A stretch of DNA of 42,863 bases from a virus. The notes under the pieces are model-generated. The model saw only the letters and a program-made list of their open reading frames with translations. It did no database searches and had not been told where the DNA came from. Location: UHGV virus genome UHGV-0096616. One strand, written 5' to 3'. The translations under genes and the position numbers were made by a program. Positions 8,922-29,471 of the stretch are shown here, piece by piece. The number at the start of each line of letters is the position of its first letter. Positions within the stretch are counted from its first letter, which is position 1.

Positions 8922-8930
8922 TGTGACATG

Positions 8931-9227
8931 TCACGTTCCTTTTCTGAATGATAGCCGTTCGAAAAATGATGACATTCCACCGCAGACAATAGCAAAGATG
9001 ATCCCACCAAAGAAGAGAAGGCCAGCCTGCCACCACTCCCACCGCCATACATCCACAGCACCAACCATACCAACAATCGCTCCAACAAATGGAATATAGC
9101 TCACGATGAAAGCAATGGGGGCTGCAATTATCCAGTGCAATCCCCACCATGATTCAAGCCCAGCCATAATTGCTGCCAACTGAAAAAGACCAACGACGAT
9201 ATAAACAATGAATCCTATCGCTTGCAT
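8931..9227 (-). CDS. small Trp-rich integral membrane protein (98 aa, ~3 TM helices)
   Basis: AGGTGA RBS; hydrophobic helices; lies between the structural operon and the moron island. Confidence 0.5.
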   Translation of the reverse strand: MQAIGFIVYIVVGLFQLAAIMAGLESWWGLHWIIAAPIAFIVSYIPFVGAIVGMVGAVDVWRWEWWQAGLLFFGGIIFAIVCGGMSSFFERLSFRKGT

Positions 9228-9239
9228 GTAGTCACCTAT

Positions 9240-9413
9240 TTACCCAGTAAAAATCAGAGGCCTCCCCTCAATAAGGCTTGCAACAAGAACTATTCCCTGC
9301 ACAACAAAGATGAACCAGCAAATAGCTTGAGTCTGAGGGTTAAGAAAATATTTGTAGCGGTCAATAAATAACAACCCACCAGAAATTATCACACTCAAAA
9401 TAATTAAAAACAC
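9240..9413 (-). CDS. small membrane protein (about 57 aa, GTG start), not in the ORF track
   Basis: Own translation; AAGGA RBS upstream of GTG; hydrophobic; ends 12 nt before the 9227 start. Confidence 0.3.
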   Translation of the reverse strand: MFLIILSVIISGGLLFIDRYKYFLNPQTQAICWFIFVVQGIVLVASLIEGRPLIFTG

Positions 9414-9422
9414 AACACTTCC

Positions 9423-11897
9423 TTATTGCGGAGTGACATCCTGAGGTCGCCACCAGTATGTCTGATTAAACTCTTTCTTCGAACGTTGCTCCATTTTACG
9501 CAAATAGCCTGGTGAAAAATACTCCTGCATCTGGTTAAAGATCATATGATCGAGAGCCGCCTTTAAGTACCAGAGATTCGCACCTGGCATCAAACCTTTC
9601 CCCAGCTTCACCAGATCACCACCAGTCTGCTCACTCTTCCCTTCCACAGCATTTAACGGTATGCCCTGAGCAATCTTCACTACGTCATCAACCAGACCAG
9701 CTACCGGGCCAAGCATCGACGCCAGCGCGCCGCTTCCGTACCTAGTGTGATCTGACAATAAAAAGTCACCGTAAAGGCCAAGACCACCACCTTTCAGTAG
9801 AGCACCAAGCCAAAATTTAGCAGCATCTTCTCCTGTCATCTCGCGAGGATTACGACCAGACGCAAGGTCGTTAAGTTGCTGCGACAAAGCGCCAAGAATG
9901 GTCGTACTGGCAATAAACGTCGCAATATATGCCGCACGCCCACCAGCAGACGGCATACCCATAGCGCGTGACCAGTGACGCATAACCACCGAGATAGGGA
10001 ACGATTTAAACAGGAAAACACTTCTCGTTAATTCACCTTTCCATGTTCCACGCTGAATACCAGAACCGGTTATCAGTTGCTCACGTGCTCCCGGTGTAAT
10101 AACAGCCATATCAACTTCTTCAGTTACGGCACCGAGCAGTTTACGCATTGCCTCAAATTTCACGCGTTCAGGCTCACCAAGATGTTTAACTGCTGAATCA
10201 GGGATACGCATAATGCTTTCCGGTGTCAGCATCGTATTATTACCGTTCCCCCAGTCCTCCTGTTGCGCCAGCTTCCATACGCTCCAGTCTGTGTCAGTAA
10301 TCCCTTTACTTTTCAGGATACGAAAATCAGAGTCATCGAGGCTACGAAGGTCTGGTGTCCGTGACACTACTTCTCCCAGGCTTCCCATCATGGTTACGCC
10401 ATAGGCGCGCTTGTGCGCATCTGACCATGCTGTAAGCCCACTGGCACGCATTACCGCCGTTGCCGCCCAACGAGACACAGACGGCCCCATATTATCCATC
10501 GCCCAGCGGTTAACGCTGCCAAGTAGAGATTCCATCGCCAGGCCAGCGCGGCGCGCCCGCGCAAGCTCAGTACGGTTCGTTGGGTCCATAGCTTCAAGCT
10601 GGTTGCGAAATAACTGGTTCATTGGAAGGTTGGTAACCTTCGCAGACAGATACATGGTTCCAAGATCAGAGAACGATGACAGCAACGCGGATCCGAGTCT
10701 GCTGGCAACCAGCCAGTTGCGGATATTGTCAGACCATCGCGCGATGTGCGGATTCGCTACAGGCTGTGTTTTTCCGGAAATAAAGTTGTACAAGTTCTCT
10801 GTTTTGTTCGCCAGACGCTCGACGCTACCGGTTTTACTCGGGTTAGCTGTTGCCGTTTCTGCCTTAACCTGATCAAGAAGGGAGCGGAAAACATGTTCGG
10901 GGTTTGGACCATATGTTTCCACCAGAGCAATATCTTTACTGATACCTTCCAGGTGACCGACCATGATTTCCCATAGAGAGCGATCACCATAAAGTTGTTG
11001 ATATTGGAGATAGGAATCTGCATCTTTGAAATGTATCTGTCGTGATGCATTACCACGGTTAGCACGTGCGCCGGAAATTCGCATTCCGGTATCAGTAAGC
11101 TTATTCAGCCCACCAGTAGCGATCGTGTTATAAGCCTCTCCAAGAAATTCAGACAACTCGGCATCGTTCATCAGTTGTCCATCGGCTCGGGTATAATATT
11201 TGCGATCCAGCTTACCTATAACATCGCTAACCCACTTATCCTTTGATACCGCCCCAACCTTTTCCATAGAATGATGTTGAGGGATCCCCCAGTTTTCGAG
11301 ATAGCCAATGTCACCACCAGCATCATTAAACCGGCGGCGCAGTAGCTCTGTCACTTCTCTCCACGCCTTAGCACCTTTTCTTGCTTTAGCATTGCCAGTA
11401 TTTTGCCCTCGCATTTCATATACCAGATCACGCACGCCCGCTTCATCTTCAAACAGGCCAAAAAAGCGAGGATCAACTGCTTCAAATGCCTCCTGCAATT
11501 GACTCAATGCATAATCACGGGTGGCTTTTGTTCTGGATTCAACAGAGAGGAAATTAGATTTACCGTCTGCATTAAAAGCTATAGTACGGTTAAGAGCGCC
11601 AAGTTTCCCATCAGCCCCTTGATAGCTATTGATAAATTTATCCAATCTCTGACGCGCGGCTATAGTGAGAGCCACACGACGTTTCTTTAATGCCGCTTCT
11701 CGCTGTAATTCTTCAGATGCCAATTGTGCTGCTCGATATAGCCGCTCTGATTCGGAAAGTTGTCGCCACGACATCGGGTCATCACGAGCAATGGAGCGCA
11801 TATTTCGATAAATGCGGTCTTCAATGTTCTGTATTTCTCGCGCCGTTAACGTGCGCTGCGCCGCCTGCTGGACCGCTTGTATACATTCCTGTCTCAT
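9423..11897 (-). CDS. internal virion / ejection (core) protein, 824 aa
   Basis: Large ORF at the end of the structural operon in the position of podovirus internal core proteins; no catalytic motif recognised. Confidence 0.55.
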   Translation of the reverse strand: MRQECIQAVQQAAQRTLTAREIQNIEDRIYRNMRSIARDDPMSWRQLSESERLYRAAQLASEELQREAALKKRRVALTIAARQRLDKFINSYQGADGKLGALNRTIAFNADGKSNFLSVESRTKATRDYALSQLQEAFEAVDPRFFGLFEDEAGVRDLVYEMRGQNTGNAKARKGAKAWREVTELLRRRFNDAGGDIGYLENWGIPQHHSMEKVGAVSKDKWVSDVIGKLDRKYYTRADGQLMNDAELSEFLGEAYNTIATGGLNKLTDTGMRISGARANRGNASRQIHFKDADSYLQYQQLYGDRSLWEIMVGHLEGISKDIALVETYGPNPEHVFRSLLDQVKAETATANPSKTGSVERLANKTENLYNFISGKTQPVANPHIARWSDNIRNWLVASRLGSALLSSFSDLGTMYLSAKVTNLPMNQLFRNQLEAMDPTNRTELARARRAGLAMESLLGSVNRWAMDNMGPSVSRWAATAVMRASGLTAWSDAHKRAYGVTMMGSLGEVVSRTPDLRSLDDSDFRILKSKGITDTDWSVWKLAQQEDWGNGNNTMLTPESIMRIPDSAVKHLGEPERVKFEAMRKLLGAVTEEVDMAVITPGAREQLITGSGIQRGTWKGELTRSVFLFKSFPISVVMRHWSRAMGMPSAGGRAAYIATFIASTTILGALSQQLNDLASGRNPREMTGEDAAKFWLGALLKGGGLGLYGDFLLSDHTRYGSGALASMLGPVAGLVDDVVKIAQGIPLNAVEGKSEQTGGDLVKLGKGLMPGANLWYLKAALDHMIFNQMQEYFSPGYLRKMEQRSKKEFNQTYWWRPQDVTPQ

Positions 11898-11902
11898 TTA
11901 AT

Positions 11903-13705
11903 TTAACCTCTCAAGAAACACGCCACAGCAACATCAAACAGGCTGGAATCCTGTATTGCCTGCTCACTTTCCCTGTTCGCTTCATCCAGTACTTCACGCG
12001 CACTGCGCGATTGTGGATTACCATCATCATCCAGCACGGTGATTATCATGTCCGGAGATTCAAGCAGCGAGTCTTCAGCTATACGCAGATCAATATCTCC
12101 TGCCGGATCTGCCATCATTTTTTGTTCTGTCTGTTGCAATATCTTACCGGGCTCAAAAGGAGCTACTTCGTCTGGCGTCCTGACCTCTGCTGTTTTATAG
12201 AATGAAACAGCCTGAGCATTAAGTTCACTTTCTGCCTGCTGTCGCCGTGCCAGTTCTGCTCGAGCTTCAAAAAACTGACCTCCAGGCTCGTGCGGCGCCA
12301 ACGCGTTACGGGAAAATTCCAGGCGTTCTTGTGCCTGCCGGATTCGTTGGTCAATATCGCGAAGTCTGACCTGTTTATCTGATCGAGCACGAGACAAAGA
12401 TTTACCGCTACCGGTTGGCTCTTCTGCAAGAATTTGTGCGCGCTGTTCAGTGAGATTTTCAATAATTCGTTGGCTATTAGCGATTTCAGACTGGTAAACC
12501 TGTCTATCGCCACGCGGCAAAAGCTGCGCGGCCTGTTCTTCAAGCAACCGATTTTCTATAGCGCGCGCCGTTACTCCATCATCTACAGATGACAGAGCCT
12601 CATTAACTGCCTGAGACAGCAGACTCTTGCGCCCAGGAATTTCACTGAAAGATGCAGACTCAACAATGCTGGCAACGTCTACAGGTCTCCCCTGGCTAAC
12701 ATCAGACATAGCTTTTCGCAGAGCCTGAATGTGAGAATTGCGCGAAAGCACGTTGATCGGCACGCCGGGCGCAATATCAATTTCAGCATGATGAGCGGCA
12801 TTCGCCGCCAGTGCAGCATCAACATCAACTGGTGAAAAATTTGGTGCGCTTGTAGACTCGCCGCGAGAGTTAATAAATCTGCCGACTCCACCAAAAGCCA
12901 CCCCAAGAACAGCATCAATAGCAATTGCCTGTCGATCCAACACATCATACTGGTTAGCCATTTCGCTATAGCCACCATCACGAAGCGTTTTTGCAGTAAG
13001 CCCGCGCTGTGCCATACCGAACGCAATATTTGTACCTGCGGCATAGGCAATATCTGGCGTTGCACGTACTGCTGTTGCCGCGGCGCGTCGCACTGAACTT
13101 TCACCCGTCCGCGCAAGCTGAGCCGCCACACCTTCCGCTAGCGCACCACCAGCACGTAACCCGAGACTCATAGGGATCAGTGTTCCGGCACCAGCAGTAA
13201 TACCCTGCACTAATCCCGCTTCCTGCGCCGTCCTGAAATCAACCCCCTGCGCTGTCAGTCGTTCAAACTCAGAAAAACCCTGTAGCGAAGTTACCGCCGC
13301 AGCACCTCCGACCGGACCACCGAGCGTTGTACCGACAACAGCCTGCCCGCCCATATCGAACAACCCATAAAGAACCTGCCCTGCGGTTCCGGTTGTCGCG
13401 GCATCAGGCGTCAGCCGCTTAACCTGCTGCTCTGCTAGTTTTCTCTGCTCGGCAATGTATGAAACTGAAGTGTCATTGAGCGAGGTGTTTTCGTTAACAA
13501 ACTGGGCAATCGGGGATACGATTTTATCCATCCCTGCCCATAGCAACTGATCTGGCTTTGCCACCAGCCCGGAGTACAAACCAGACAATGCCGCCCCTAC
13601 AGCATTGTCGAAAAAACCAACATCGCTGTTAAAGCCAGCTGGATTTGATGCTGCTTCGTCAAGCTGCTGATTCTGGTTTACTGGATTAAGGCCAAAGTAA
13701 CTCAT
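11903..13705 (-). CDS. internal virion / ejection protein, 600 aa (Ala/Gly-rich)
   Basis: Position in structural operon; ATGA overlap with the upstream gene. Confidence 0.5.
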   Translation of the reverse strand: MSYFGLNPVNQNQQLDEAASNPAGFNSDVGFFDNAVGAALSGLYSGLVAKPDQLLWAGMDKIVSPIAQFVNENTSLNDTSVSYIAEQRKLAEQQVKRLTPDAATTGTAGQVLYGLFDMGGQAVVGTTLGGPVGGAAAVTSLQGFSEFERLTAQGVDFRTAQEAGLVQGITAGAGTLIPMSLGLRAGGALAEGVAAQLARTGESSVRRAAATAVRATPDIAYAAGTNIAFGMAQRGLTAKTLRDGGYSEMANQYDVLDRQAIAIDAVLGVAFGGVGRFINSRGESTSAPNFSPVDVDAALAANAAHHAEIDIAPGVPINVLSRNSHIQALRKAMSDVSQGRPVDVASIVESASFSEIPGRKSLLSQAVNEALSSVDDGVTARAIENRLLEEQAAQLLPRGDRQVYQSEIANSQRIIENLTEQRAQILAEEPTGSGKSLSRARSDKQVRLRDIDQRIRQAQERLEFSRNALAPHEPGGQFFEARAELARRQQAESELNAQAVSFYKTAEVRTPDEVAPFEPGKILQQTEQKMMADPAGDIDLRIAEDSLLESPDMIITVLDDDGNPQSRSAREVLDEANRESEQAIQDSSLFDVAVACFLRG

Positions 13706-16215
13706 TGCGGAATATCTCCGGAGAATCTCTGACGCTTCTGTGTCAGATCAAGAACAACAGGAGAACCATCATCCTTCAGCAGATATCCAGTCCCAAGTTT
13801 TACCAGGTACTGACTATCGCCGTAACTTTGCAAACCATACTGACCAGGCGGTGTTTTTATCCCTGTGCCAACAACTTGTTCATTCCAAGCCTGATTAACC
13901 TGCTTATCGAATTGCTCTGCAGACATTCCCCACGGCAAAAGAACATTCCCCATTCCGTTATAGTCATGCACGCCACCTGTAGCTACGTTAACAGCCTGTT
14001 TCCAGATATCATTGTCAATTTCGCCTGATACCACGCCTTTTTTCGCCATCACACCAGCGTAATAGTCCTTTGCGATCTCGTATGCCATTGATGCCCCCTG
14101 AGCATCACCAGCAAATGCATCCTTCACCATGTCAGAAAACTCAAGGCGAAGATCAGCATCTTTAGGCATCGGAATACCTTTCGCGTCATCAGTACCTTTA
14201 CGAGCCGCCGCGCCAGCAAGAATTGTCTGCGCAGCGGTTTCTGGAGACACGGAAACATCCGGATTAAACCAGTTTTTTTCTGCCAAAATACCACCTGGCT
14301 TATCCATCAGTATCCCGGCAACGGCAGCAGATGGAGCGTTGGCACTGATCTGCTGTAGTGCTGACATATACACCTGCCCACCACCAGTGCTCTGCCTGAT
14401 GGTATCGAGATATGCTGCCTGTTGGGAAACGGGCGCATCACGAAAGAAAACACCGATCTGATTGGCCTCGTCTTTGGAAAAGAACGTCAGTGGAGTGCCA
14501 TATGACTTAGCAAGGTCACTGACCTGAGCAGCACGCAAGGCAACGCTCTGTCCAAAGTTATCCTTATTGCTCATGTCGATAGGCTTTGCCTGTCCGGCGG
14601 CAAGAGAGAACTGCACAGGATCCGATTGCCGCTGCTTTATCACCTGATTTGCAGCCGAAACAACGTTGTCATAAAGAGCTGCGCGTGCCGCATACCCCTC
14701 CCCTGTCTCACCAGTATCCGGGCGTAATTGCTCAACATATGCTGTAATGCTGCTTGTCGGCATATTGCGGAAAGAGCCTATATACTGTCCGGCGATCTGC
14801 GTATTTCTGAACTCGGTATATCGCAGGTTTCCTTCTCTGACGCCATAAGCTGCAATAAAATCAGCCTCACCAGGTGGGTTAGGAAATTCAACGCCACGCA
14901 TATACGCAGCCGTCGCATCGCGAACCTGGCTGTCAATCATCGTTTTATATTCAGCCTGCTGCTGCCGACGAAGTTGATCCGCCTGTCGCATAAAACTTGC
15001 CTGCGCCTCAGGAGATGCCGCATCGAATGCTGCATTACCGGTATAGCGTTTAGTGTTGGTTGGAATTGTTAATAAACCAAGTGCTGCACTGACACCAGCA
15101 GTTAACTGCTGATCACTGTATGGCTGGCTACCGTTCTCATGATGGATAATGGCTGCACAAAGCGCCTTCAGGGTATCAGGATTAGATGCATCGAGAGGCT
15201 CATCAGCAGAAACGCCAAGTTGTTCGCACACTGCTTTGATATACGACATAGTGTCATTTTTATCAGTAGGCGGTGCCCAGCGATTAATTATCTCGCTGAC
15301 GGTATCAATACCCTGCCTCTGATACGACATCAGGTTCCGCCCTAATGCACGAATCCCGTGTTCAGGTGTTTCGAATTTAGCAAATCGACCATCATCACCG
15401 GTCTGGCCTACCCACGGATTAGTTTTGCTGTATTCGAGATTTCCTGGGTTATTGTTGCGTATGCCACGGGCACGCTCGGAAGAGTCACTATCTGCTACAG
15501 CACGGCGAGCTCCAGCAGCAGTATCACTTAACTCGCCATTACTTTGGATGAATGCGGTCGCATTGTTTGCCGACCACTGGGACAATGCAGCATCAGCAAC
15601 CTTCTCTTTAAACTCGATTTTCTTGGCCTGGATTTGCTCGTCACTCCAGCCATGTGCAATGCCGTAATCCTCAATTTGCTGGAAAGTTTGCTTATTAGCC
15701 AATACGTATGCGGCGTTGTCGCCATACAATGCTGCGGCATTTTTACCATTGTTCAGCAGCGTAGCCTGAAACTGGCCTTCTTCGTAGGCATTTATTTGCC
15801 CTATCTCGTGCCGCCCTGCCTGCGTAGTGAACTGAATGCGCTGCTGCTGCGCCTGCTGCATGAAAGCATTACGAGCCTGTTCATCCGGCAGCGACATAGC
15901 CAGTTGTTCGACCTGAGCATCAAACTGCTGCGTATACTCATGGCCTTTTCCAATAGCATTTTTCCCTTTCAGGTTAAGCAATCCTGTTTCAGGATTATTC
16001 AGCAGATCACTGCTTATCTGACTGAGGTTAAGAGATGCCTCCTGAGCCAGAGCGATATTGGCACGCTGTTTTGCCTGACCAAAAACATCAATTGCCTCTG
16101 TCCCTGCCCGAACAAAAGCATCACCAATACCTGGCTGAGAAAACGTCTGCAAGCCTGCTGACTGAACTCCACGGCTCTGAACCTGACGGCCGGATACTGT
16201 TGGTACGACTGGCAT
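13702..16215 (-). CDS. internal virion protein, ~837 aa; contains an RNNNPGNL segment that may mark an enzymatic domain
   Basis: Start placed at ATG 16215 overlapping the upstream stop (TAATG); composition and position. Confidence 0.5.
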   Translation of the reverse strand: MPVVPTVSGRQVQSRGVQSAGLQTFSQPGIGDAFVRAGTEAIDVFGQAKQRANIALAQEASLNLSQISSDLLNNPETGLLNLKGKNAIGKGHEYTQQFDAQVEQLAMSLPDEQARNAFMQQAQQQRIQFTTQAGRHEIGQINAYEEGQFQATLLNNGKNAAALYGDNAAYVLANKQTFQQIEDYGIAHGWSDEQIQAKKIEFKEKVADAALSQWSANNATAFIQSNGELSDTAAGARRAVADSDSSERARGIRNNNPGNLEYSKTNPWVGQTGDDGRFAKFETPEHGIRALGRNLMSYQRQGIDTVSEIINRWAPPTDKNDTMSYIKAVCEQLGVSADEPLDASNPDTLKALCAAIIHHENGSQPYSDQQLTAGVSAALGLLTIPTNTKRYTGNAAFDAASPEAQASFMRQADQLRRQQQAEYKTMIDSQVRDATAAYMRGVEFPNPPGEADFIAAYGVREGNLRYTEFRNTQIAGQYIGSFRNMPTSSITAYVEQLRPDTGETGEGYAARAALYDNVVSAANQVIKQRQSDPVQFSLAAGQAKPIDMSNKDNFGQSVALRAAQVSDLAKSYGTPLTFFSKDEANQIGVFFRDAPVSQQAAYLDTIRQSTGGGQVYMSALQQISANAPSAAVAGILMDKPGGILAEKNWFNPDVSVSPETAAQTILAGAAARKGTDDAKGIPMPKDADLRLEFSDMVKDAFAGDAQGASMAYEIAKDYYAGVMAKKGVVSGEIDNDIWKQAVNVATGGVHDYNGMGNVLLPWGMSAEQFDKQVNQAWNEQVVGTGIKTPPGQYGLQSYGDSQYLVKLGTGYLLKDDGSPVVLDLTQKRQRFSGDIPQ

Positions 16216-16760: not shown

Positions 16761-17224
16761 TATTTTCTCTCCATGTGAAATCTGTGGAAATTAAGACCAA
16801 GAGCACCATAAGGCGCGGCTTCTTCAAGCCTGAATCCAAGCCAGTGCAGCCATGCTTTGGCAACATGGTTTCGCTCGTCGACGTAGTTTTCCAGGCGCGG
16901 ATAAACTGCCAGCATCTGCTGCAATACAGGTCGGCAGTGGCGAAGAAATGTCTTCTGATATTTTTCAATACGGCTGGTTCCGACCAGCCAGGGCGTACCA
17001 TTGCCACCGATCATTGACGCCGGAGATACACCAAACATGGTTACCAGTTCTCCGTTCGCGAACCCTGACCAGGCCATAGTCGCAGTGCGCAGACCAACAC
17101 GCAGCGCATCTTCGGTAGTCATCAGCGATACCGCATACAGTTCGTCAATATCAGCCTGACGAACATCCGGCAAAATCATCTGAAGATGCTCTTCGGTTGC
17201 GGGAATAATTTGAACATCGATCAT
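16760..17224 (-). CDS. structural/internal virion protein (154 aa)
   Basis: Translationally coupled between nozzle-like and core proteins. Confidence 0.45.
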   Translation of the reverse strand: MIDVQIIPATEEHLQMILPDVRQADIDELYAVSLMTTEDALRVGLRTATMAWSGFANGELVTMFGVSPASMIGGNGTPWLVGTSRIEKYQKTFLRHCRPVLQQMLAVYPRLENYVDERNHVAKAWLHWLGFRLEEAAPYGALGLNFHRFHMERK

Positions 17225-20297: not shown

Positions 20298-20623
20298 TCA
20301 CCTCCGTTACCGTACAGAGTTTCAGCCGCTGATTTTTCTACATCCCCGGAAACAGGAGCGATCGCCATATCAGTGATCTGCAGATCGGCGCTGCGATTAA
20401 CACCATCGTCAGTTTCTCTGGCAGACAGGCCTCGAATAACAGCCTTTGCAGTTATCATCACTTCTGTTCCGACGCCCTGAGGTTGCGCCTTCAGCTTATT
20501 CAATGTGTCGTTATTCAGCGTGATGCACAGCCCCCACGGGTATTCATCGCGAGTTCTGGTTTCTCCGCTCTCATCCTGGTAGCTGTCAGTGCCGGTTTTG
20601 AGGTTTACGAGTTCCATATACAC
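20294..20623 (-). CDS. hypothetical structural protein (109 aa)
   Basis: In capsid-tail module; overlaps the downstream start. Confidence 0.4.
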   Translation of the reverse strand: MYMELVNLKTGTDSYQDESGETRTRDEYPWGLCITLNNDTLNKLKAQPQGVGTEVMITAKAVIRGLSARETDDGVNRSADLQITDMAIAPVSGDVEKSAAETLYGNGGE

Positions 20624-21012: not shown

Positions 21013-21013
21013 C

Positions 21014-22495: not shown

Positions 22496-22503
22496 TTCCT
22501 CTC

Positions 22504-23205: not shown

Positions 23206-23498
23206 TCCTGTTCACTGGCCTCTTTGGCCATCTTCAAATACTGTTCAGGGCAATGCGCCATAACGCGCTGAAACAGTTCCAGCGCCAGATTGCGTTGCCC
23301 CTCATTAAATGCCATTGCCATAGCGTCCATCGGTGAGATAGCGGAAAACACACGGCCTTTCTCCAGCACCGACCAGACAACGCGACGCCCCTGTTCACTG
23401 CTCATGACAAAGCGAATGTCATCAATTTCACGCTGTGCCATGTCACGTTGCTTACGGGCGTTTTCTTCTTTCAGTTGATCATCTTCGTAATCTGTCAT
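23202..23498 (-). CDS. small hypothetical head-morphogenesis protein (98 aa)
   Basis: Translationally coupled between portal and scaffold. Confidence 0.4.
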   Translation of the reverse strand: MTDYEDDQLKEENARKQRDMAQREIDDIRFVMSSEQGRRVVWSVLEKGRVFSAISPMDAMAMAFNEGQRNLALELFQRVMAHCPEQYLKMAKEASEQE

Positions 23499-25174
23499 TG
23501 TGATTGCCCACCCTGACCACTAACTGCATTCGCCATAGCTGACAAAACACTCGGATCCGAAGTTTTAGCTTCGCTTAGCGTCTTGGCACCCTGTGCCGCC
23601 GCCATCCCCATCGCCATCATTTGTTGCTGCTGTTGTTGCTGTGCCCGTTGCTGGCGAGCCTGCTCAACCTGTTCCTGCGGAACAATGACGGTTGGAGACA
23701 CTCCGGACATATCAGCGAATGCATCGATCGCCTGATCAACGTTGAGTTTGTCGAGAGCTTCTGGTTTCGCTTGCGCAAGTTGACCAATGAAGTTAACCGT
23801 GGACGCCAGACTGGACAGGCCGATAGACTTCTGCGCCTGAGCCATGACGGAAATGTATTCGACCTTCAGGGGCATACCTTCCATCGCGTGAGGCGGTGGC
23901 GGCAGCATGTTTTTACGCACCATCATCGAGAAAGCGCGGTCAATGAGAGGGTTAAGACATTCGTCGTTCAGACGCTCCAGAACCGGCCCCAACATCAGAA
24001 GTTTTTCTTCTTTCATTTCGATCACCGCTTCAACAGGCATCGAGCGGGTATTGATGTTCTGCAACATCATGAACAGATCGACAAAGTAGGCGCTGTTAAT
24101 GATTTGACGAGTGTCCTGAATGTCTGCCACCAAATCTGCTGTACTGGGGTTAACCAGATAAGCAGGCCTGAAGCCATCCTGACCAGTAATCTGATCGATA
24201 TACGTGATGTCGCCAGGAAGAAGGGAGGCGCGCTGATTCTTGAGGGAAGTCGGAGCAACCATCGGCGGATTGGTGGCTTTATCAATCAACTGCGACTTGC
24301 GCTTCTGGAGAAGCTGCAATGCCTTAACAGGTCCAAGCGCCAGCATACCCGGGCATGATGATCCATAAACATCTTCGCCGTTAACTTCCCAGCGCGGAGC
24401 CATAATTGGAAACTCATCGAATCCGGACTCACGCAACAACTTGTCGTTATCGCCACCAACCTCGTAATAAACCGATTTGAATGGCTTGTTCTTGCTATCC
24501 AGCTTCGATGTATCGCGGTCAATGTTCGGGTAAACCGAATGCATCACTTCAATCCACTTCTCGTAGGTGCCGCTTTCCCACATGCTTTTTACGGATTCGC
24601 TGACGTTATTTAGCCCGAACTCCTGAACAAGCTGACGAACAGTCATAGAGAACTTGCGAAAACAGGTGTCCACACTGCCACGAGGTGAGTTAGCCAGGTA
24701 GTAACTGCCTATCGGGAATGGCATTGTGCGAATGATGTCCTCGTCATCCTCCAGCACCGCCATTGCACCAGTGCTGTATGTGCCGAGGCTTCCGTATAAC
24801 TGCGGCAGCGACTGATAGAGATTCGACTTATTGAACATATCGTTCATGCGGTTCTGCACCGCCTCAAGCCACAACTTAACAGGGCCATAATCCATCATTT
24901 CAGGATCTGGCGTAGCCAGGCGAAACCACGGACGCGCGGGGCTTGTGATGCCTGACATCATGCCGCTGGCGAGAGTGCGCGCCGCCATAGTCCCGGTCGA
25001 ATCAATAATGCGTGTATTGCGTCGATCGTTACGGTTGACCTCAGAAGTCAGAAAGCGGGAACCACGTGGGTTGATGTAATCACTCAACTCGCGCCAGTGC
25101 GGCTCGAACGACTGACGCTCGCTTTCAAGTTGTGCGAACTGTTTGTTCAATCGCTCTTTAGTTGTTTCCGCCAT
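23495..25174 (-). CDS. portal (head-to-tail connector) protein, 559 aa
   Basis: Size, position after terminase, Q-rich C-terminal tail. Confidence 0.75.
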   Translation of the reverse strand: MAETTKERLNKQFAQLESERQSFEPHWRELSDYINPRGSRFLTSEVNRNDRRNTRIIDSTGTMAARTLASGMMSGITSPARPWFRLATPDPEMMDYGPVKLWLEAVQNRMNDMFNKSNLYQSLPQLYGSLGTYSTGAMAVLEDDEDIIRTMPFPIGSYYLANSPRGSVDTCFRKFSMTVRQLVQEFGLNNVSESVKSMWESGTYEKWIEVMHSVYPNIDRDTSKLDSKNKPFKSVYYEVGGDNDKLLRESGFDEFPIMAPRWEVNGEDVYGSSCPGMLALGPVKALQLLQKRKSQLIDKATNPPMVAPTSLKNQRASLLPGDITYIDQITGQDGFRPAYLVNPSTADLVADIQDTRQIINSAYFVDLFMMLQNINTRSMPVEAVIEMKEEKLLMLGPVLERLNDECLNPLIDRAFSMMVRKNMLPPPPHAMEGMPLKVEYISVMAQAQKSIGLSSLASTVNFIGQLAQAKPEALDKLNVDQAIDAFADMSGVSPTVIVPQEQVEQARQQRAQQQQQQQMMAMGMAAAQGAKTLSEAKTSDPSVLSAMANAVSGQGGQSQ

Positions 25175-25188
25175 TTCAATGACTCCGG

Positions 25189-25395
25189 TTACTGACCAAG
25201 CAGCGTTTTACCGCCGGTCTTAGCGGTTGATGTGTCGCCCTGAGAACCGGTAAGCAGCGTAGAACTACGACCAGCAGCAGCGCGACGGCGACGAGTTTCT
25301 TCGTCGCGGGCATCAACAACGGCGGCATCCTGCTCCTGTGGTGCTGCCTGAACTTCTGGTGTTGCAGGCACTGATGGTGAGCTACCCATGCACAT
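25189..25395 (-). CDS. small acidic hypothetical protein (68 aa)
   Basis: GGAG RBS; upstream of portal; an alternative overlapping frame exists. Confidence 0.3.
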   Translation of the reverse strand: MCMGSSPSVPATPEVQAAPQEQDAAVVDARDEETRRRRAAAGRSSTLLTGSQGDTSTAKTGGKTLLGQ

Positions 25396-25484
25396 ATCAA
25401 TGACTCCGTACGCAATTAAATTATTACCAATTTAACCACATATGATTTATTTATCGTAGATAGTTGACATTTAACGCACAAATT

Positions 25485-25501
25485 ATTACCTTTCAGGTAA
25501 C
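25485..25501. promoter_or_regulatory. palindrome ATTACCTTTCAGGTAAC (site 4) with -35 TTGACA at 25464-25469
   Basis: Dyad 17 bp downstream of a consensus -35; faces the noncoding leader and tRNA. Confidence 0.5.
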
Positions 25502-25822
25502 CAAAGAGTTCATTCCGGTTACTAACCTGACTGGCTTGTCGTTAAATTGAACAGGTGGAGTGAGCTTTTATTTTGAGCAGTACGGCGTATGGCACATGCG
25601 CCGATAGCGGTCTGGATACGTTTAAGGGGCACCCTCCCTTGCTCGGGCAAACGAACCAGGTAGCCGGAATGTGCAAGTCGAGCGGTTTTATTCCGCGCAC
25701 GGGGATTCACCATCCCGGCGATTCGGTGTGACGCCTCGGAAGAGACGAGGGTACAACGATGAGAGCATTTATGGAGCCGCGACAAAGTGTGGTGCCTTAA
25801 CAGGCTAAGTGCTCTCAGCGTT

Positions 25823-25899
25823 GTGGCATTAGCTCAGTTGGACAGACCAACCGCCTTCTAAGCGGTTGGTCGCAGGTTCGAATCCTGCATGCCACGCCA
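25823..25899 (+). tRNA. tRNA-Arg (anticodon UCU)
   Basis: Cloverleaf read by hand: acceptor stem GTGGCAT/ATGCCAC, T-arm GCAGG-TTCGAAT-CCTGC, anticodon loop CTTCTAA, 3-prime GCCA; one D-stem mismatch. Confidence 0.85.
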
Positions 25900-26062
25900 G
25901 AATCACGCCTAAGGACCGTGATGCCAGAAGTTCCAGGTGCTTGGCGGTGATGGTTTCCCTTGAAGGACTATCACCGCCCTTTTTACAGCAGGACGCCATT
26001 GCGATGACTTCATGCTGTAAACCAGTACAGCCACGGAAGGCATAACTCATTGCTTCCAGTTC

Positions 26063-26086
26063 GCCCGGTTCGCCGGGCATTTTTTT
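26063..26086 (+). terminator. intrinsic terminator (GCCCGG-ttcg-CCGGGC then A-TTTTTTT)
   Basis: Perfect hairpin plus T7 run after the tRNA. Confidence 0.7.
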
Positions 26087-26101
26087 GCTTGATGACCGCA
26101 A

Positions 26102-26118
26102 ATTACCTTAAAGGTATA
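26102..26118. promoter_or_regulatory. palindrome ATTACCTTAAAGGTATA (site 5) inside a promoter (-35 ATGACC 26092-26097, -10 TATAAT 26115-26120)
   Basis: Dyad between -35 and -10 with 17-bp spacing. Confidence 0.5.
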
Positions 26119-26145
26119 ATCATGAAAAACTTCAAGGTAATTAGC

Positions 26146-26940
26146 ATGTTTGAATCGTTTAAAGAGCTGTTTTTATCTACTGCCAATACTGCCGTGAATA
26201 GAGCCAAAAACCCTGTGCTTGGTGCTTTTGTTATGTCCTGGTGCGCCTTCAACTGGAAATCAATTCTTTATCTATTTTTTAGCAAATCAAACATAATAGA
26301 TAAAATTTCATATATCTCAGATAACAGCACATGGAAAACTGTTATGTTTTATCCATGCTTATCTGTAATTGCTATCTGCTGCCTATTACCATGGGTAAAC
26401 AATATCATTAACGTATGGCAAGCAAAGCCTCTTGATAATAATGACTCAATCGAAAATCACCTGAAGGCAAGAAAAATCCAGCGTGAAACAAGACTGCAGA
26501 GGTTATTGGCTAAAAAAGATGTTACATACGACAAAGTTAAGACTGGCGCGGAAAAAGACATCCAAGAGATGAAAGAAGAGATTATTCGATCAAAGAATAG
26601 TATGGGGGAATTGACTGCCGAGTTGAAAGCTAAAGATGACGAATTGAGATCCGCCAGTGCTCAGTTAGCAGCTCTAAATCATTCATTAAAAGAGATATCG
26701 GAAACTCTTGGAAGAATGAATGAGGCATATAATACCCTCCAAAATGATTTCGACGAATACAAACTCAAATACCCTGAAAAATCTCAAATAAAAAGCCTTG
26801 CACTTGGCAACGGCCAAACAATTAGCAACTTTTTGGAGCAACACAACTTATCCGGATTAAAATCTGGTAAGCCAAACGTTTTTAATAACTTTGGTGTTCT
26901 ATCTGGATTATCAGGTTTCGAGGATAAAAATAAAGACTAA
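26146..26940 (+). CDS. AT-rich accessory (moron) membrane protein with long C-terminal coiled coil (~264 aa); candidate superinfection-exclusion/abortive-infection factor
   Basis: Two predicted TM helices then coiled coil; visibly low GC; opposite strand to the late operon; own promoter and terminator; start set at ATG 26146 (AAGG RBS) because the track start at 26122 abuts the -10. Confidence 0.5.
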   Translation: MFESFKELFLSTANTAVNRAKNPVLGAFVMSWCAFNWKSILYLFFSKSNIIDKISYISDNSTWKTVMFYPCLSVIAICCLLPWVNNIINVWQAKPLDNNDSIENHLKARKIQRETRLQRLLAKKDVTYDKVKTGAEKDIQEMKEEIIRSKNSMGELTAELKAKDDELRSASAQLAALNHSLKEISETLGRMNEAYNTLQNDFDEYKLKYPEKSQIKSLALGNGQTISNFLEQHNLSGLKSGKPNVFNNFGVLSGLSGFEDKNKD

Positions 26941-28412
26941 GCATATGGATCGTACTCGGTAAGCGCCTTGCCTTGCTGGTTCTGCTGCCCGGGAAGTCGC
27001 AGGCGCTTTGACACCGGGAAAGCAAACGTCAGCAGTAGCGCATCGCCTTTACCCGGCGAACGCCCAAGCCGCTCCTTGATATCTTCCTTCGGTTCGATAA
27101 CGATTTTACCGTCCACTCGAACTTTGTACTCTGCCGCCGACAGGTCGTCCGCTGTTTCCTGGTCATCCAGCATGCCGCCCAGCCTCAGCCATGTCTTGCA
27201 TGCATTGAACATCTCCCCACGCTTGTTAAGCATCTGCGGGTCAGTGGACGCACCGCCGAACGGAACAAGTTGCCATGTACGTCCCCAGCCATCACCGATT
27301 GACTTCAAACCGGTTCCGTAACCGAAGTCGATGAACACCGCGTCAGCCTGGTACTGGTCTTCAAAGTCAGCGATACGCTTCGCCATAATCAGATCGTCGG
27401 TGGTCTTGTTGCCAGTCCACAACACCTTACTGTGCAGCCCCTGCCGCAGGTATATCACAGCGTCATCAACGCCGGAGTATGCAGGGTCAACGCCGATTAT
27501 CACCGGAGCATGTGCCACCTGCGCAGCAGTTACCACCCGTTTCATTGCCTCGTCAGTAAGACCGGTAGGGATAAACTGCAATTCAGATGCATCAGGGAAT
27601 ATGCCGCGCACACGGATTTTAACGAAGTCGCTGTCTTCCCCGTAGTCATCAACCCATTTCTGCAACTGCTGTTTGTTGGTGCCTTCCACCGTCCGGCTGT
27701 CAATCTGCGCAGTTTTCCAGCGGTGTTTATATTTGCGGAAACATTCGCGGAAACGCCCGGTATTACGCGTCGGGTTCCCGAACGCCACCCAGATGATTTC
27801 GGTGTCTTCGTCCGTCAGCGCACCCTCTGCTACCTCCCACACCAGATCGGCAATGTTGGATGCTTCGTCGAAAACCACGATGATGCGTTTGCGCTCGTTG
27901 TGTAGTCCGGCGAATGCCTCAGTGTTGTGCTCAGACCAGGGGATTGCGTCAGCTCGCCACCGCTTGTCGTGCCCAGGATCATTGCTGTACATCGCGGTAG
28001 CGGTACAGGTAAACCAGTCTTTCGTGATGGCAAGGTTCGACCACTTGATAATTTCCGGCCAGGTCTTCGTTCGTAGCTGGTTGTCGGTGTTGGCGGTCAC
28101 CACGACCTTACAATCCTCGCAAGTGGACATGCCCCAGTTGATCAGCATTGAGATGAATGCGGATTTACCAATACCGTGACCAGAAGCGCGTGCCAGCATA
28201 AGCGGCTGATATCGCGTCTCTGGATTCTGCAGGTGATCACGTATCTCTCGGAACGCATCGGCCTGCCACTGACGTGGACCGGTGGCATGTGCCAGTTCAG
28301 TACCCTCTTCCCCCCACGGGAACGCATAGAGGGCATAGCCAAGCGGATCGTGAGTGAACCCTGCAATATCCTCGATCAACTGCTCTTCAGGAGATAACGC
28401 TGTATCTGTCAC
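26937..28412 (-). CDS. terL: terminase large subunit (491 aa)
   Basis: Walker A-like ASGHGIGKS in the N-terminal ATPase, acidic nuclease-type C-terminal half, position after terS. Confidence 0.85.
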   Translation of the reverse strand: MTDTALSPEEQLIEDIAGFTHDPLGYALYAFPWGEEGTELAHATGPRQWQADAFREIRDHLQNPETRYQPLMLARASGHGIGKSAFISMLINWGMSTCEDCKVVVTANTDNQLRTKTWPEIIKWSNLAITKDWFTCTATAMYSNDPGHDKRWRADAIPWSEHNTEAFAGLHNERKRIIVVFDEASNIADLVWEVAEGALTDEDTEIIWVAFGNPTRNTGRFRECFRKYKHRWKTAQIDSRTVEGTNKQQLQKWVDDYGEDSDFVKIRVRGIFPDASELQFIPTGLTDEAMKRVVTAAQVAHAPVIIGVDPAYSGVDDAVIYLRQGLHSKVLWTGNKTTDDLIMAKRIADFEDQYQADAVFIDFGYGTGLKSIGDGWGRTWQLVPFGGASTDPQMLNKRGEMFNACKTWLRLGGMLDDQETADDLSAAEYKVRVDGKIVIEPKEDIKERLGRSPGKGDALLLTFAFPVSKRLRLPGQQNQQGKALTEYDPYA

Positions 28413-29005
28413 TGATTACCATCCTGACGTTCTTTGAGTCGCTTCCTGGCTGCTGCTATGCGATCAGCAATTGTCACATTCACATTAACATCCAGACGTT
28501 CTTTGAACGCGTTGACATCAACATGCTTACCAATCAGTTCTAGGTTCTTCACCTTGTCAGGCCATTTAATTTTTTTGAGGATTGTCTCTATCGAATCCTC
28601 GTTCATGTTCATGATGGTCGATGACAGATCAAAGCCACTAAGCGTAGTGCGCCAGATTTTCGGCCACTCACGGATTGGTTTAAGGCTCCCATCGTCGTTG
28701 AGGATATCGATCACGTCCATCTGGTCGATCTCCACCAAGCGCATGAGAACGTAATCAGCACTGACGCGCATTCGTTTGTTGCGCTCCTCCATCAACTCGG
28801 CAATCCGTTTTTGAATGCGTTCATCGCGCATCATGACACTGGCTTTAACTGCCGCTGTATTTGGGGAGAATCCTGCGTTAATCGCAGCCTGAGTCTGGTT
28901 TTCAGGCGTTTTGATGTATGACTGGCAATAAGCCTCCTGCATTGCTGTGAGCGGCTTAAATTGCGTTGATTTGCGTTTATAGGTTTTAGGTTCAGCAGGC
29001 ATCAT
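28409..29005 (-). CDS. terS: terminase small subunit (about 198 aa)
   Basis: Overlaps the terL start; start moved to MMPAEP because the longer track N-terminus is translated from operator-like repeats. Confidence 0.6.
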   Translation of the reverse strand: MMPAEPKTYKRKSTQFKPLTAMQEAYCQSYIKTPENQTQAAINAGFSPNTAAVKASVMMRDERIQKRIAELMEERNKRMRVSADYVLMRLVEIDQMDVIDILNDDGSLKPIREWPKIWRTTLSGFDLSSTIMNMNEDSIETILKKIKWPDKVKNLELIGKHVDVNAFKERLDVNVNVTIADRIAAARKRLKERQDGNQ

Positions 29006-29021
29006 AACCACCGTGGTAATA

Positions 29022-29038
29022 GTTACCGTTGTGGTAAT
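29022..29038. promoter_or_regulatory. palindrome GTTACCGTTGTGGTAAT (site 6) at the start of the late operon
   Basis: TTACC-N5-GGTAA dyad 17 bp upstream of the terS start, with extra GGTAAT half-sites nearby. Confidence 0.45.
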
Positions 29039-29044
29039 AGTACC

Positions 29045-29074
29045 ATGCAAAATAAAGCCGCCATAGTTGGCGGC
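29045..29074 (-). terminator. intrinsic terminator on the - strand upstream of terS (GCCGCC-aactat-GGCGGC then TTTATTTTG)
   Basis: Hairpin plus U-rich tract. Confidence 0.5.
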
Positions 29075-29123
29075 AGTATTCAAAACCCGTCAAATTCATC
29101 ATGCATAATCTACTCGTGACATG

Positions 29124-29471
29124 TCACACTATTAATTTCGTTTCATGCCAGCCTTTAGTCACCCAGCATTGCGAGTCACCATTACACGGGCATGAATTAA
29201 CTGGAACTCTCTCGCCGCACTTACCGCAACGTTTTCTGCTGATCGATTTTATACGCCCGCGCACACGTGCATCATCCTGGCGGATCAGCAGCGCGATGTA
29301 CTCGGCCATTTCATAGGGATCGCGACCAGGGCGCCGGGCGGCGCAGTTCCGCGCTAGCATTTCCTGCTCCTGCTTATCCAGCACCAGTTCAATTTTGCGC
29401 TCACCGGCGGCGGACTGCCGAGCGCGCTGCGCGGCTTTGCGTTCTGCGGGGGATTTAGCCACGAATCGCAC
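29124..29471 (-). CDS. hypothetical basic protein with C-terminal Cys-rich zinc-ribbon-like motif (115 aa); possible late-gene regulator
   Basis: Motif CGKCG...CPC; last gene before the late-operon control region. Confidence 0.4.
   Translation of the reverse strand: MRFVAKSPAERKAAQRARQSAAGERKIELVLDKQEQEMLARNCAARRPGRDPYEMAEYIALLIRQDDARVRGRIKSISRKRCGKCGERVPVNSCPCNGDSQCWVTKGWHETKLIV

What the first reader, a model, noticed from the sequence alone, without database searches (positions are those of the whole stretch)
8923..29127. Identical 12-bp palindrome GTGACATGTCAC at the stop codons of two unrelated minus-strand genes, each followed by a terminator
The exact 12-mer occurs at 8923-8934 and 29116-29127. 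In both cases the TGA stop of a minus-strand gene (8931 membrane protein; 29124 zinc-ribbon protein) lies in the same register inside the palindrome, and an intrinsic terminator hairpin follows within ~50 nt. A second copy of a given 12-mer is expected at well under 0.01 per window. Both copies mark module boundaries (structural operon to moron island; early region to late operon), suggesting a recombination junction or regulator site.
Basis: seen in the sequence. Interest (0 to 1): 0.45.

Follow-up and report, generated by a model that had tools for sequence, protein, structure and literature searches.

The report
Conserved phage palindrome, likely regulator-binding site
The repeated 12-base palindrome is real and is kept at the same places in many related and unrelated phages, always alongside one small uncharacterised DNA-binding protein gene, so it is most likely that protein's recognition site, which nobody appears to have described.

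Summary
GTGACATGTCAC lies at 8923-8934 and 29116-29127. Each copy holds the TGA stop of a minus-strand gene in the same register, and each is followed by an intrinsic terminator.

The window is a phiV10/epsilon15-like (Uetakevirus) prophage beside guaA. The 12-mer is not a chance repeat. epsilon15, SPN1S, Tyrion and BUCT711 each carry three exact copies, most at homologous gene ends. Hundreds of prophages keep it while the flanks on both sides are replaced.

Over 39 independent contexts the motif is sharply bounded: Y-GTGAC-NN-GTCAC-R, with a variable centre.

One copy nearly always sits on or beside the stop codon of the 115-aa gene at 29124-29471 (epsilon15 gp49 family, phrog_536). The predicted fold of that protein is ribbon-helix-helix plus a Cys-rich tail.

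The motif travels with homologues of this gene, down to 35-39% identity, into unrelated phage types: myoviruses ZF40 and AH07, a P2-like Yersinia phage, an N15-like linear plasmid prophage and Vibrio phages. These carry one to three exact-arm copies each. Lambda has none.

Best reading: this is the cognate recognition site of that protein, probably on duplex DNA. What binding does is unknown. In this genus a role as a gate at the ends of transcription units is an inference. "Regulator site" is supported; "recombination junction" is not favoured.

The parts
29116..29127 (.). Palindrome copy 2 (GTGACATGTCAC). It overlaps the TGA stop (29126-29124) of the regulator gene and lies 41 nt upstream of a terminator.
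   Evidence: Exact in 77 of 80 IMG/VR relatives although both flanks diverge. At or within 45 nt of the homologous stop codon in 29 of 51 GTDB loci.
8923..8934 (.). Palindrome copy 1 (GTGACATGTCAC). It overlaps the TGA stop (8933-8931) of the last gene of the late operon and abuts that operon's terminator.
   Evidence: Exact in 71 of 80 relatives, with at least 3 different upstream genes and at least 3 different downstream sequences. Homologous copies: epsilon15 19517, SPN1S 19662, Tyrion 20377, BUCT711 18526.
29124..29471 (-). Gene for the 115-aa protein. The true start is probably the GTG at codon 4, giving 112 aa as in most homologues. It belongs to the epsilon15 gp49 / phiV10 p55 family (phrog_536) and is the candidate binder of the palindrome.
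29048..29074 (-). Intrinsic terminator between the early-right operon and terS: hairpin at 29074-29057, then TTTATTTT.
   Evidence: sequence.
8896..8922 (-). Intrinsic terminator of the late operon: hairpin at 8922-8905, then TGTTTTT. It lies directly next to palindrome copy 1.
   Evidence: sequence. phiV10 annotates the homologous hairpin as a terminator.
8931..9227 (-). 98-aa predicted membrane protein (phrog_3075). It is the variable last gene of the late operon, and its stop codon lies in the palindrome.
   Evidence: Relatives have other genes in this position (phiV10 p21, epsilon15 gp18, a third type) while the palindrome stays.
28409..29005 (-). Small terminase gene, the first late gene downstream of copy 2. 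Context only.
   Evidence: The start is inferred from the epsilon15 terS length.
8836..8852 (+). Terminator of the convergent plus-strand moron operon (isrK/C4 RNA, Bro-N antirepressor-like gene, 146-aa gene). Context only.

Best explanation
The 12-mer is the core of a short, sharply bounded recognition site, Y-GTGAC-NN-GTCAC-R. It is most likely bound by a dimer of the small protein encoded at 29124-29471 (epsilon15 gp49 family; predicted ribbon-helix-helix fold with a C-terminal Cys-rich, probably zinc-binding, tail). Binding is most likely to duplex DNA.

The gene and one copy of its site form a unit. The site overlaps or abuts the gene's own stop codon. Further copies lie elsewhere in the genome. 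In epsilon15-like phages these are at the 3' ends of transcription units, between the last stop codon and the terminator.

Shown:
- the motif, its conservation and its sharp bounds;
- its co-occurrence with the gene across unrelated phages;
- the predicted DNA-binding fold.

Inferred:
- that this protein is the binder;
- that binding is to DNA rather than RNA.

Speculative:
- what binding does. My best guess for this genus is a gate or roadblock that, once the protein has been made from the end of the early operon, modulates how much transcription passes the operon-end terminators.
For: (1) Conservation against changing flanks.
- 77 of 80 relatives at site 2 and 71 of 80 at site 1 keep the exact 12-mer while upstream genes and downstream sequence are swapped.
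- epsilon15, SPN1S, Tyrion and BUCT711 each have 3 exact copies, most at homologous positions.

(2) The shape expected of a dimer binding site.
- Over 39 independent contexts the flanks carry about 0.1 bit, positions -1 and +12 prefer Y and R, and the centre prefers AT. The arms were fixed by the search pattern in that logo.
- Arm conservation is shown, where variants found next to the gene within 1 mismatch mostly keep GTGAC/GTCAC and change the centre to AC, GT, CT or AG.

(3) Linkage to the gene.
- 43 of 51 GTDB loci chosen only by the protein carry an exact-arm site within 8 kb (52 sites against 0.38 expected). 29 have it within 45 nt of the stop codon.
- The lambdoid phage Chlobot keeps a single copy, and it lies beside a truncated fragment of the gene.

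(4) Co-occurrence in unrelated phage types that carry a homologue.
- ZF40: 3 copies of TGTGACATGTCACA.
- AH07: 2 copies, one on the stop codon.
- phiKO2: 3 copies of GTGACTGGTCAC, one on the Gp45 stop in the same G|TGA register.
- Vibrio K233: 3 copies.
- Yersinia vB_YenM_42.18: sites at 11675, 11708 and 11741, exactly 33 bp apart, in an AT-rich intergenic region. That spacing suits cooperative binding on one face of DNA.
- Lambda, which lacks the gene, has no exact-arm site.

(6) The palindrome alone is a negligible RNA hairpin: -1.2 kcal/mol, z = -0.03.
Against: - No binding experiment exists, and none of the literature searches run here turned up any description of the motif; the exact 12-mer returned 0 papers.
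- Loci were found through the protein, so the co-occurrence is partly ascertained. Only one negative-control genome (lambda) was scanned, and bacterial chromosomes were not scanned.
- No lineage with a different arm sequence was found, so there is no protein-site covariation.
- Positions are unusual for an operator: 3' of genes, inside genes, and with variable distance to terminators (0-41 nt) and to promoters.
- In many contexts the site abuts the Shine-Dalgarno sequence of the next gene. This would also fit an RNA-level role.
Confidence: 0.55

Rival explanations
1. The same protein recognises the site, but on RNA. The transcript element GUGAC-NN-GUCAC sits at the 3' end of the regulator's own cistron and of other cistrons. 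Binding there would control translation of the next gene, terminator read-through or 3'-end stability. Phage Mu Com is the model for this idea (recalled from memory): a small zinc protein whose target lies at the end of its own gene.
For: - The site lies in transcribed 3' regions next to terminators in Uetakeviruses.
- In many other contexts it lies directly 5' of the next gene's Shine-Dalgarno sequence, for example phiKO2 CACggaggg...ATG, Chlobot, L013, L193 and Vibrio K233.
- The protein has a Cys-rich tail and an Arg-rich N-terminal helix.
- A variable centre fits loop positions of a hairpin.
Against: - The hairpin is only 4 bp, at -1.2 kcal/mol, no better than shuffled sequence.
- There are no compensatory arm changes, only invariance or single-arm decay.
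- The predicted fold is that of DNA-binding ribbon-helix-helix proteins.
- The exact 33-bp spacing of the Yersinia array points to DNA.
- In tightly packed genes any intergenic element ends up next to a Shine-Dalgarno sequence.
Confidence: 0.15
2. A host protein of Enterobacterales and Vibrionales binds the site, for example a MatP-like factor. The arms are identical to those of matS (GTGACRNYGTCAC). The phage would use the host factor to organise or silence its DNA.
For: - The arms GTGAC/GTCAC equal the matS arms (matS consensus cited in PMC6907758).
- The sites are multi-copy and dispersed rather than promoter-linked.
- The hosts of the motif-bearing phages are Enterobacterales and Vibrio.
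Against: - The spacer is 2 nt, not 3, in every one of more than 50 contexts, so the site does not fit the matS consensus.
- A host-factor site would not need to track one phage gene, yet the motif does. It is absent from lambda.
Confidence: 0.1
3. The site is a recombination junction or linker. It would be a short conserved sequence at module boundaries where related phages exchange modules, kept because recombinants that join there are viable.
For: - In Uetakeviruses every canonical copy sits where flanking genes are swapped: variable last late gene, moron islands, and inserted umuD-like or extra genes after the regulator.
- Homology breaks fall next to the palindrome.
Against: - Conservation ends abruptly at 12-14 bp. 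That is very short for homologous exchange.
- The model explains neither the palindromic symmetry nor kept arms with a free centre.
- Copies lie inside conserved genes in ZF40, phiKO2, AH07 and BUCT711.
- The Yersinia array is not a module junction.
- No recombinase is associated with the sites. The only integrase seen is a tyrosine integrase with its own att region.
Confidence: 0.08
4. The site is a packaging (pac) or terminase recognition site. Copy 2 lies about 110 nt upstream of terS, relatives have another copy just after terL, and these phages package by headful.
For: - Its position brackets terS-terL in epsilon15, SPN1S and GTDB loci L170-L176.
- Tyrion is circularly permuted (PMC5754475), and its record happens to be opened exactly at the dyad.
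- Vibrio K233 has a copy 19 nt before terS.
Against: - The site stays with the regulator gene when other genes are inserted between it and terS.
- In Chlobot, ZF40, AH07 and phiKO2 it stays with the regulator although that gene is far from the terminase genes.
- The Tyrion contig came from a circular SPAdes assembly, so its ends are not physical.
Confidence: 0.05

Closest known systems
Ribbon-helix-helix repressors with palindromic operators (P22 Arc and Mnt, CopG, ParD/TacA antitoxins, AmrZ, TraM)
   Same: The predicted fold of the adjacent protein matches this class. The target is a short symmetric DNA site of dimer size. The setting is a temperate phage.
   Different: - There is no detectable sequence homology.
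- The protein has an extra C-terminal Cys-rich domain.
- The sites are not at the protein's own promoter. They lie at the 3' end of its gene, at operon ends or inside genes.
- They are single 12-14 bp sites, not the tandem or longer operators typical of Arc and Mnt (the latter recalled from memory).
MatP-matS of the E. coli Ter macrodomain (matS = GTGACRNYGTCAC)
   Same: The 5-bp arms are identical. Several dispersed copies occur per replicon, not tied to promoters. MatP also contains a ribbon-helix-helix element (from memory).
   Different: The phage site has a 2-nt spacer (12 bp) and matS a 3-nt spacer (13 bp). The phage protein is not a detectable MatP relative by sequence or fold search. 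The sites are on a phage, not in the chromosome terminus.
Lambda-type Q gene, late promoter and terminator arrangement
   Same: In this window the regulator gene is the last gene of the early-right operon. It is followed by its site, a short spacer, a terminator and then the late genes.
   Different: - ZF40 and phiKO2 carry the regulator and also a separate Q-like antiterminator.
- No promoter is conserved at a fixed distance from the site.
- Extra copies lie at operon ends and inside genes.
Mu Com and its target at the com-mom junction (translational activator; from memory)
   Same: A small Cys-rich protein whose target lies at the 3' end of its own gene, just upstream of the next gene's ribosome-binding site.
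   Different: Com binds RNA next to a stable inhibitory hairpin. Here the hairpin is negligible, the fold is ribbon-helix-helix, and the sites are multi-copy.
Dispersed centromere-like palindromes of the linear plasmid prophage N15 (SopB sites; from memory; phiKO2 annotates analogous 'partitioning sites')
   Same: A few identical palindromes are scattered through a phage genome, bound by one phage protein, and lie in or near transcription units.
   Different: The sequence and the protein family differ. Most motif-bearing phages here integrate into the chromosome and need no partition system.
SlmA-binding sequence GTGAGTACTCAC (PMC3020112)
   Same: A 12-bp perfect palindrome sharing the outer GTGA...TCAC.
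   Different: The inner four bases differ (GTAC against CATG). SlmA belongs to the TetR family (from memory). No link was tested.

Membership tests
Operator of a ribbon-helix-helix DNA-binding protein | The cognate protein has the ribbon-helix-helix fold | tested here: met
Operator of a ribbon-helix-helix DNA-binding protein | A short symmetric or repeated DNA site with base-specific arms | tested here: met
   Y-GTGAC-NN-GTCAC-R with uninformative flanks over 39 contexts. Centre variants with kept arms. An array with 33-bp spacing in the Yersinia phage.
Operator of a ribbon-helix-helix DNA-binding protein | Demonstrated binding of the protein to the site, with an effect on transcription | not testable with these tools
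   This needs EMSA or footprinting, ChIP and reporter assays. No published data were found.
Operator of a ribbon-helix-helix DNA-binding protein | The site overlaps or adjoins a promoter that it controls | tested here: inconclusive
   Only weak promoter-like matches use the palindrome's GTGACA as a -35 element. These are not conserved across lineages. In the Yersinia and Vibrio phages the sites lie just upstream of genes.
matS (MatP site) | The 13-bp consensus GTGACRNYGTCAC | tested here: not met
   All copies are 12 bp with a 2-nt spacer. Consensus taken from PMC6907758.
Intrinsic terminator (as a component of it) | The element forms part of the GC-rich hairpin or U-tract, at fixed geometry | tested here: not met
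   The distance to the hairpin varies from 0 to 41 nt, and the hairpins differ in sequence. Many copies in other phages have no terminator nearby: 15 of 39 contexts have one within 75 nt.
Lambdoid Q-type antitermination module | The regulator is the sole late antiterminator, with its binding element inside the late promoter | tested here: not met
   ZF40 and phiKO2 have separate Q-like genes. No conserved promoter geometry was found.
pac site | A site tied to the terminase genes that marks the start of packaging series | tested here: inconclusive
   The site follows the regulator gene rather than terS when the two are separated. Physical DNA ends could not be examined.
Mosaic boundary or linker sequence | A conserved stretch found only at module junctions, with no requirement for symmetry | tested here: not met
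   Intragenic copies exist. The dyad symmetry is strict and the 12-14 bp bounds are sharp.
Known RNA family (Rfam) | A match to a curated covariance model at either site | tested here: not met
   The Rfam gathering-threshold scan of the window hits only C4, isrK and a tRNA. Nothing is found at 8923 or 29116.

The most novel reading that the evidence does not exclude
The protein and its palindromes form a phage boundary system. A sequence-specific DNA-bound factor, made at the end of the early operon, sits between the last stop codon and the terminator of each transcription unit. There it acts as a protein-assisted terminator or insulator, or, by bridging sites, as a loop-forming organiser. It would thereby time the early-to-late transition and shield convergent moron operons. 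This would be a bacterial-virus counterpart of DNA-bound termination factors, built on a ribbon-helix-helix plus zinc module that has spread across at least five phage lineages.
Probability: 0.2. Interest if true: 0.7.

Novelty: new variant of a known kind. Interest (0 to 1): 0.5.

Why it matters
If this is right, an orphan protein family (phrog_536; no Pfam or NCBIfam model) gets a defined DNA target and a small regulon in each phage. The family is found in hundreds of enterobacterial and Vibrio prophages, including O157 and Salmonella serotype-converting phages.

The placement of the sites is not the textbook operator layout. They lie on the regulator's own stop codon and at operon ends next to terminators. 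That may reveal how epsilon15-like phages, which have no recognised late regulator, separate early, late and moron transcription.

The prediction is cheap to test with a gel shift using a 12-bp site. The motif is also a practical marker for annotating these prophages.

Tried and rejected
- Chance. Rejected by the comparative counts, although the window alone gives only p of about 0.03.
- Coding constraint. Rejected, because 8 of the 12 bases are non-coding at both sites and the upstream genes differ.
- Physical genome end. The phiV10 record boundary falls inside the palindrome only because the record ends at the stop codon of the last gene. Tyrion's opening at the dyad comes from a circular assembly of a permuted genome.
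- epsilon15 repressor operator. Rejected; those operators are ATTACC-N5-GGTAAT.
- A possible fourth site at the Rz stop codon. It is GTGACATGTCAT in SPN1S and GTGACATGGCAT in epsilon15, but not recognisable in the window. I treat it as unproven.
- Protein-site covariation. No lineage with different arms was found.
- Literature searches found nothing on the motif: the exact 12-mer gave 0 papers, and the Uetakevirus and palindrome terms gave nothing relevant. The epsilon15 genome paper is not held.
- Pfam, NCBIfam and the PDB sequence search found nothing for the protein.

Technical dead ends:
- Alignment A1 was too divergent for the search for related loci.
- The P22 and P2 control fetches were only 200 nt and were not used.
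About half of its 120 stretches are probably chance matches in unrelated contigs.

Full report
**1. The observation**

GTGACATGTCAC occurs exactly twice in the window, at 8923-8934 and 29116-29127. Both copies contain the TGA stop of a minus-strand ORF in the same register, G|TGA|CATGTCAC:
- 8931..9227, a 98-aa protein of phrog_3075;
- 29124..29471, a 115-aa protein of phrog_536.

Each copy is followed on the minus strand by a terminator-like hairpin with a T-run. One is at 8922-8905 and directly abuts the palindrome. The other is at 29074-29057, 41 nt downstream.

Its chance estimate is too optimistic for a post-hoc find. The window holds 13 perfect 12-nt palindromes, and 2.75% of 400 Markov simulations contain some repeated one.

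**2. What the window is**

The window is a phiV10/epsilon15-like (Uetakevirus) prophage. It has a tyrosine integrase and lies next to guaA.

On the minus strand the early-right operon ends with the 115-aa gene. The late genes then run from terS (about 29005) down to 8931. The two palindromes therefore sit at the early/late junction and at the end of the structural operon.

**3. Conservation within the genus**

*Site 2 (regulator stop codon).* Among 80 IMG/VR loci retrieved with the 115-aa protein, 77 have the exact 12-mer on the stop codon. The three exceptions are a deletion, a contig end and a different 3' end.

The sequence on both sides of the 12-mer changes:
- the last codons of the gene differ;
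- downstream there is either the terS leader with its terminator, an inserted gene with its own ribosome-binding site, or a LexA-box promoter driving a umuD-like gene.

*Site 1 (end of the late operon).* Among 80 loci retrieved with the C-terminus of the 824-aa virion protein, 71 have the exact 12-mer next to the late-operon terminator. Seven have a single mismatch at the same place, and two loci are truncated.

These copies come with at least three unrelated upstream genes and at least three different downstream sequences. Two of the upstream genes use the palindrome's TGA as their stop. The phiV10 p21 type stops 8 nt earlier.

*Complete genomes.*
- epsilon15 has exact copies at 39612 (gp49 stop), 19517 (gp18 stop) and 2142.
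- SPN1S has copies at 38653, 19662 and 2174.
- Tyrion has copies at 20377 and 2702, and a third across its record ends.
- Klebsiella phage BUCT711 has copies at 431, 18526 and 26462.

*The third canonical site.* This lies after terL, at the end of a leftward moron. There too the order is stop codon, palindrome, 4 nt, then a terminator for the gene that ends there.

Close relatives of the window have this third site (L263). The window does not, because a different 296-aa convergent gene abuts terL.

The epsilon15 repressor operators annotated in its record are a different sequence, ATTACC-N5-GGTAAT.

**4. Shape of the motif**

I collected GTGAC-NN-GTCAC sites from all loci and kept one per flank type, which gave 39 contexts.
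- Information content falls to about 0.1 bit immediately outside the site.
- Position -1 prefers Y and position +12 prefers R (0.62 bit).
- The centre prefers AT.

The arms were fixed by the search pattern in that logo, so they are not independent evidence there. Arm conservation is shown separately, which looked for the best match next to the regulator stop codon in 51 GTDB loci. Most 1-mismatch variants keep both arms and change only the centre (GTGACACGTCAC, GTGACGTGTCAC, GTGACCTGTCAC, GTGACAGGTCAC).

A strict dyad with base-specific arms, a tolerant centre and abrupt edges is what a dimeric DNA-binding protein would impose. A homology patch for recombination would not look like this.

As RNA, the 12-mer alone folds to only -1.2 kcal/mol, no better than shuffled sequence. 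I saw no compensatory arm changes. Rfam finds nothing at either site.

**5. Link to the adjacent gene**

A GTDB scan with an alignment of the protein returned 51 loci. They come from Citrobacter, Klebsiella, Pantoea, Erwinia, Xenorhabdus, Providencia, Proteus, Morganella, Rahnella, Serratia, Yersinia and others.
- 29 loci have an exact-arm site within 45 nt of the stop codon.
- 43 have one somewhere in the roughly 8-kb locus.
- In total there are 52 sites in 398 kb, against 0.38 expected.

Where the site is not on the stop codon it lies at other gene junctions of the same early region. In one case it lies 30 nt upstream of the regulator's start codon.

The lambdoid phage Chlobot carries only a 46-aa fragment of the gene. 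Its single copy of the 12-mer lies right beside that fragment.

**6. The same pairing in unrelated phages**

tblastn finds homologues in other phage types. Each one examined carries the motif.

| Phage | Type | Sites |
|---|---|---|
| ZF40 (Pectobacterium) | myovirus, 68% identity | 3 x TGTGACATGTCACA: 3 nt after the gp22 stop, inside the cII-like gene, inside gp08 (0.04 expected) |
| AH07 (Pantoea) | myovirus-like | GTGACCTGTCAC on the stop codon; GTGACATGTCAC in another gene |
| phiKO2 | N15-like linear plasmid prophage, 39% identity | 3 x GTGACTGGTCAC: one on the Gp45 stop in the same G|TGA register, one in the replicase gene, one intergenic |
| K233 (Vibrio) | 35% identity | 3 exact-arm sites; two lie 19 nt before start codons, one of them terS |
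| vB_YenM_42.18 (Yersinia) | P2-like, 38% identity | GTGACATGGCAC, GTGACATGTCAC and a half-site starting at 11675, 11708 and 11741, exactly 33 bp apart, in an AT-rich intergenic region |

Lambda lacks the gene and has no exact-arm site. Its two 1-mismatch hits are at chance level.

ZF40 and phiKO2 also encode separate Q-like antiterminators. The protein is therefore not simply the Q analogue of these phages.

**7. The protein**

It has no Pfam, NCBIfam or PDB sequence match.

An alignment of distant homologues shows three conserved features:
- a conserved basic N-terminal helix (R11 invariant, R16 nearly so);
- a strand-helix-helix core;
- an invariant CxxC, followed by further Cys residues.

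This is moderate support for a dimeric DNA-binding protein of the class that reads short symmetric sites.

**8. Mechanism**

The steps differ in how well they are supported.
- *Shown:* a conserved, multi-copy, sharply bounded palindrome. It travels with one gene across phage lineages, and that gene encodes a predicted ribbon-helix-helix protein.
- *Inferred:* this protein binds the site, probably on DNA. The dyad symmetry, the 33-bp array and the fold all point that way.
- *Open:* what binding does.

In Uetakeviruses all canonical copies lie between the last stop codon of a transcription unit and its terminator. The hairpin sequences differ and the distances range from 0 to 41 nt. The palindrome is therefore not part of the terminator, but it is consistently placed just ahead of one.

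A protein made from the last early gene and bound at these points could act as a gate or roadblock. It could also act as a bridge between sites. Either way it would adjust read-through at operon ends.

In other phages the sites lie just upstream of genes or inside them, which would fit repression or polarity. I give the gate idea about 0.2 to 0.25.

An RNA-level role of the same protein, similar to Mu Com, is a live rival. The site often abuts the next gene's Shine-Dalgarno sequence. However, in packed genomes any intergenic element does so.

**9. Comparison with known systems**

The arms equal those of matS (GTGACRNYGTCAC; PMC6907758). The spacer is one base shorter in every copy, so the site does not qualify as matS.

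The site shares only the outer bases with the SlmA site GTGAGTACTCAC (PMC3020112).

The closest kind is a ribbon-helix-helix repressor and operator pair such as P22 Arc or Mnt. This case differs in the added Cys-rich domain and in where the sites lie.

The GenBank annotations examined do not mark the motif. A full-text search for the sequence returned nothing.

**10. Verdict**

It is a genus-wide and cross-lineage motif. It is most likely the recognition site of an uncharacterised phage regulator.

The stop-codon overlap is an old, conserved feature of the regulator gene itself. For the other genes it is probably incidental.

I rate the finding as a new variant of a known kind, of moderate interest, and directly testable.

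Noticed in passing
window 7182-7367 (+), upstream of 7415-8110: Rfam finds an isrK Hfq-binding RNA (7182-7257) and a C4 antisense RNA (7282-7367). They lie directly upstream of a Bro-N domain gene that resembles an antirepressor. This looks like a P1/P7-style C4-ant immunity module inside the moron island that converges on palindrome copy 1.
   Followed up: partly
window 29004-29038: Two operator-like repeats overlap the terS start codon: ATAACC-N5-GGTAAT at 29004-29020 and GTTACC-N5-GGTAAT at 29022-29038. They match the ATTACC-N5-GGTAAT 'repressor' sites annotated before terS, gp3 and gp20 in epsilon15. This suggests that the prophage repressor acts directly on the late operons.
   Followed up: partly
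window 25823-25899 (+): A tRNA-Arg (anticodon TCT) lies in the moron region between terL and the portal gene.
   Followed up: no
window 26050-26940 (+): A 296-aa gene (phrog_4780, function unknown) converges on terL, and its stop region overlaps the terL stop. It occupies the place where epsilon15, SPN1S and close E. coli relatives carry the third palindrome copy with a leftward terminator.
   Followed up: partly
L166 (Enterobacter phage Tyrion), record ends: The GenBank record is opened exactly at the dyad of the palindrome: it ends ...GTGACA and starts TGTCAC... The paper reports a circularly permuted genome assembled with SPAdes, so this is probably not a physical end. The coincidence remains unexplained.
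   Followed up: partly
L165 26722 (SPN1S) and L164 26618 (epsilon15); window about 2008-2020: The Rz-like spanin gene ends in a degenerate copy of the motif in the same TGA register: GTGACATGTCAT in SPN1S and GTGACATGGCAT in epsilon15. The window has TAG followed by CATGGCAT there, which is not recognisable as the motif. This may be a decayed fourth site, or it may be chance.
   Followed up: partly
L343 11675-11752 (Yersinia phage vB_YenM_42.18): Two full sites and one half-site are spaced exactly 33 bp apart in an AT-rich intergenic region upstream of gp21, next to an Smc-like gene. This is the clearest operator-like array of the motif and would be a good substrate for binding tests.
   Followed up: partly
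L345 (phiKO2), L344 (Vibrio K233), L341 (ZF40): Within a genome the copies tend to share the same central dinucleotide: TG/CA three times in phiKO2, AC twice plus GC once in K233, and AT three times in ZF40 and the Uetakeviruses. The centre may therefore matter to each lineage's protein, or the copies may be homogenised.
   Followed up: no
window 39793-42813: The prophage integrase (416 aa, 39793-41043) lies next to guaA (GMP synthase, 41236-42813). The Klebsiella relative ST11-OXA245phi3.2 has the same arrangement.
   Followed up: partly
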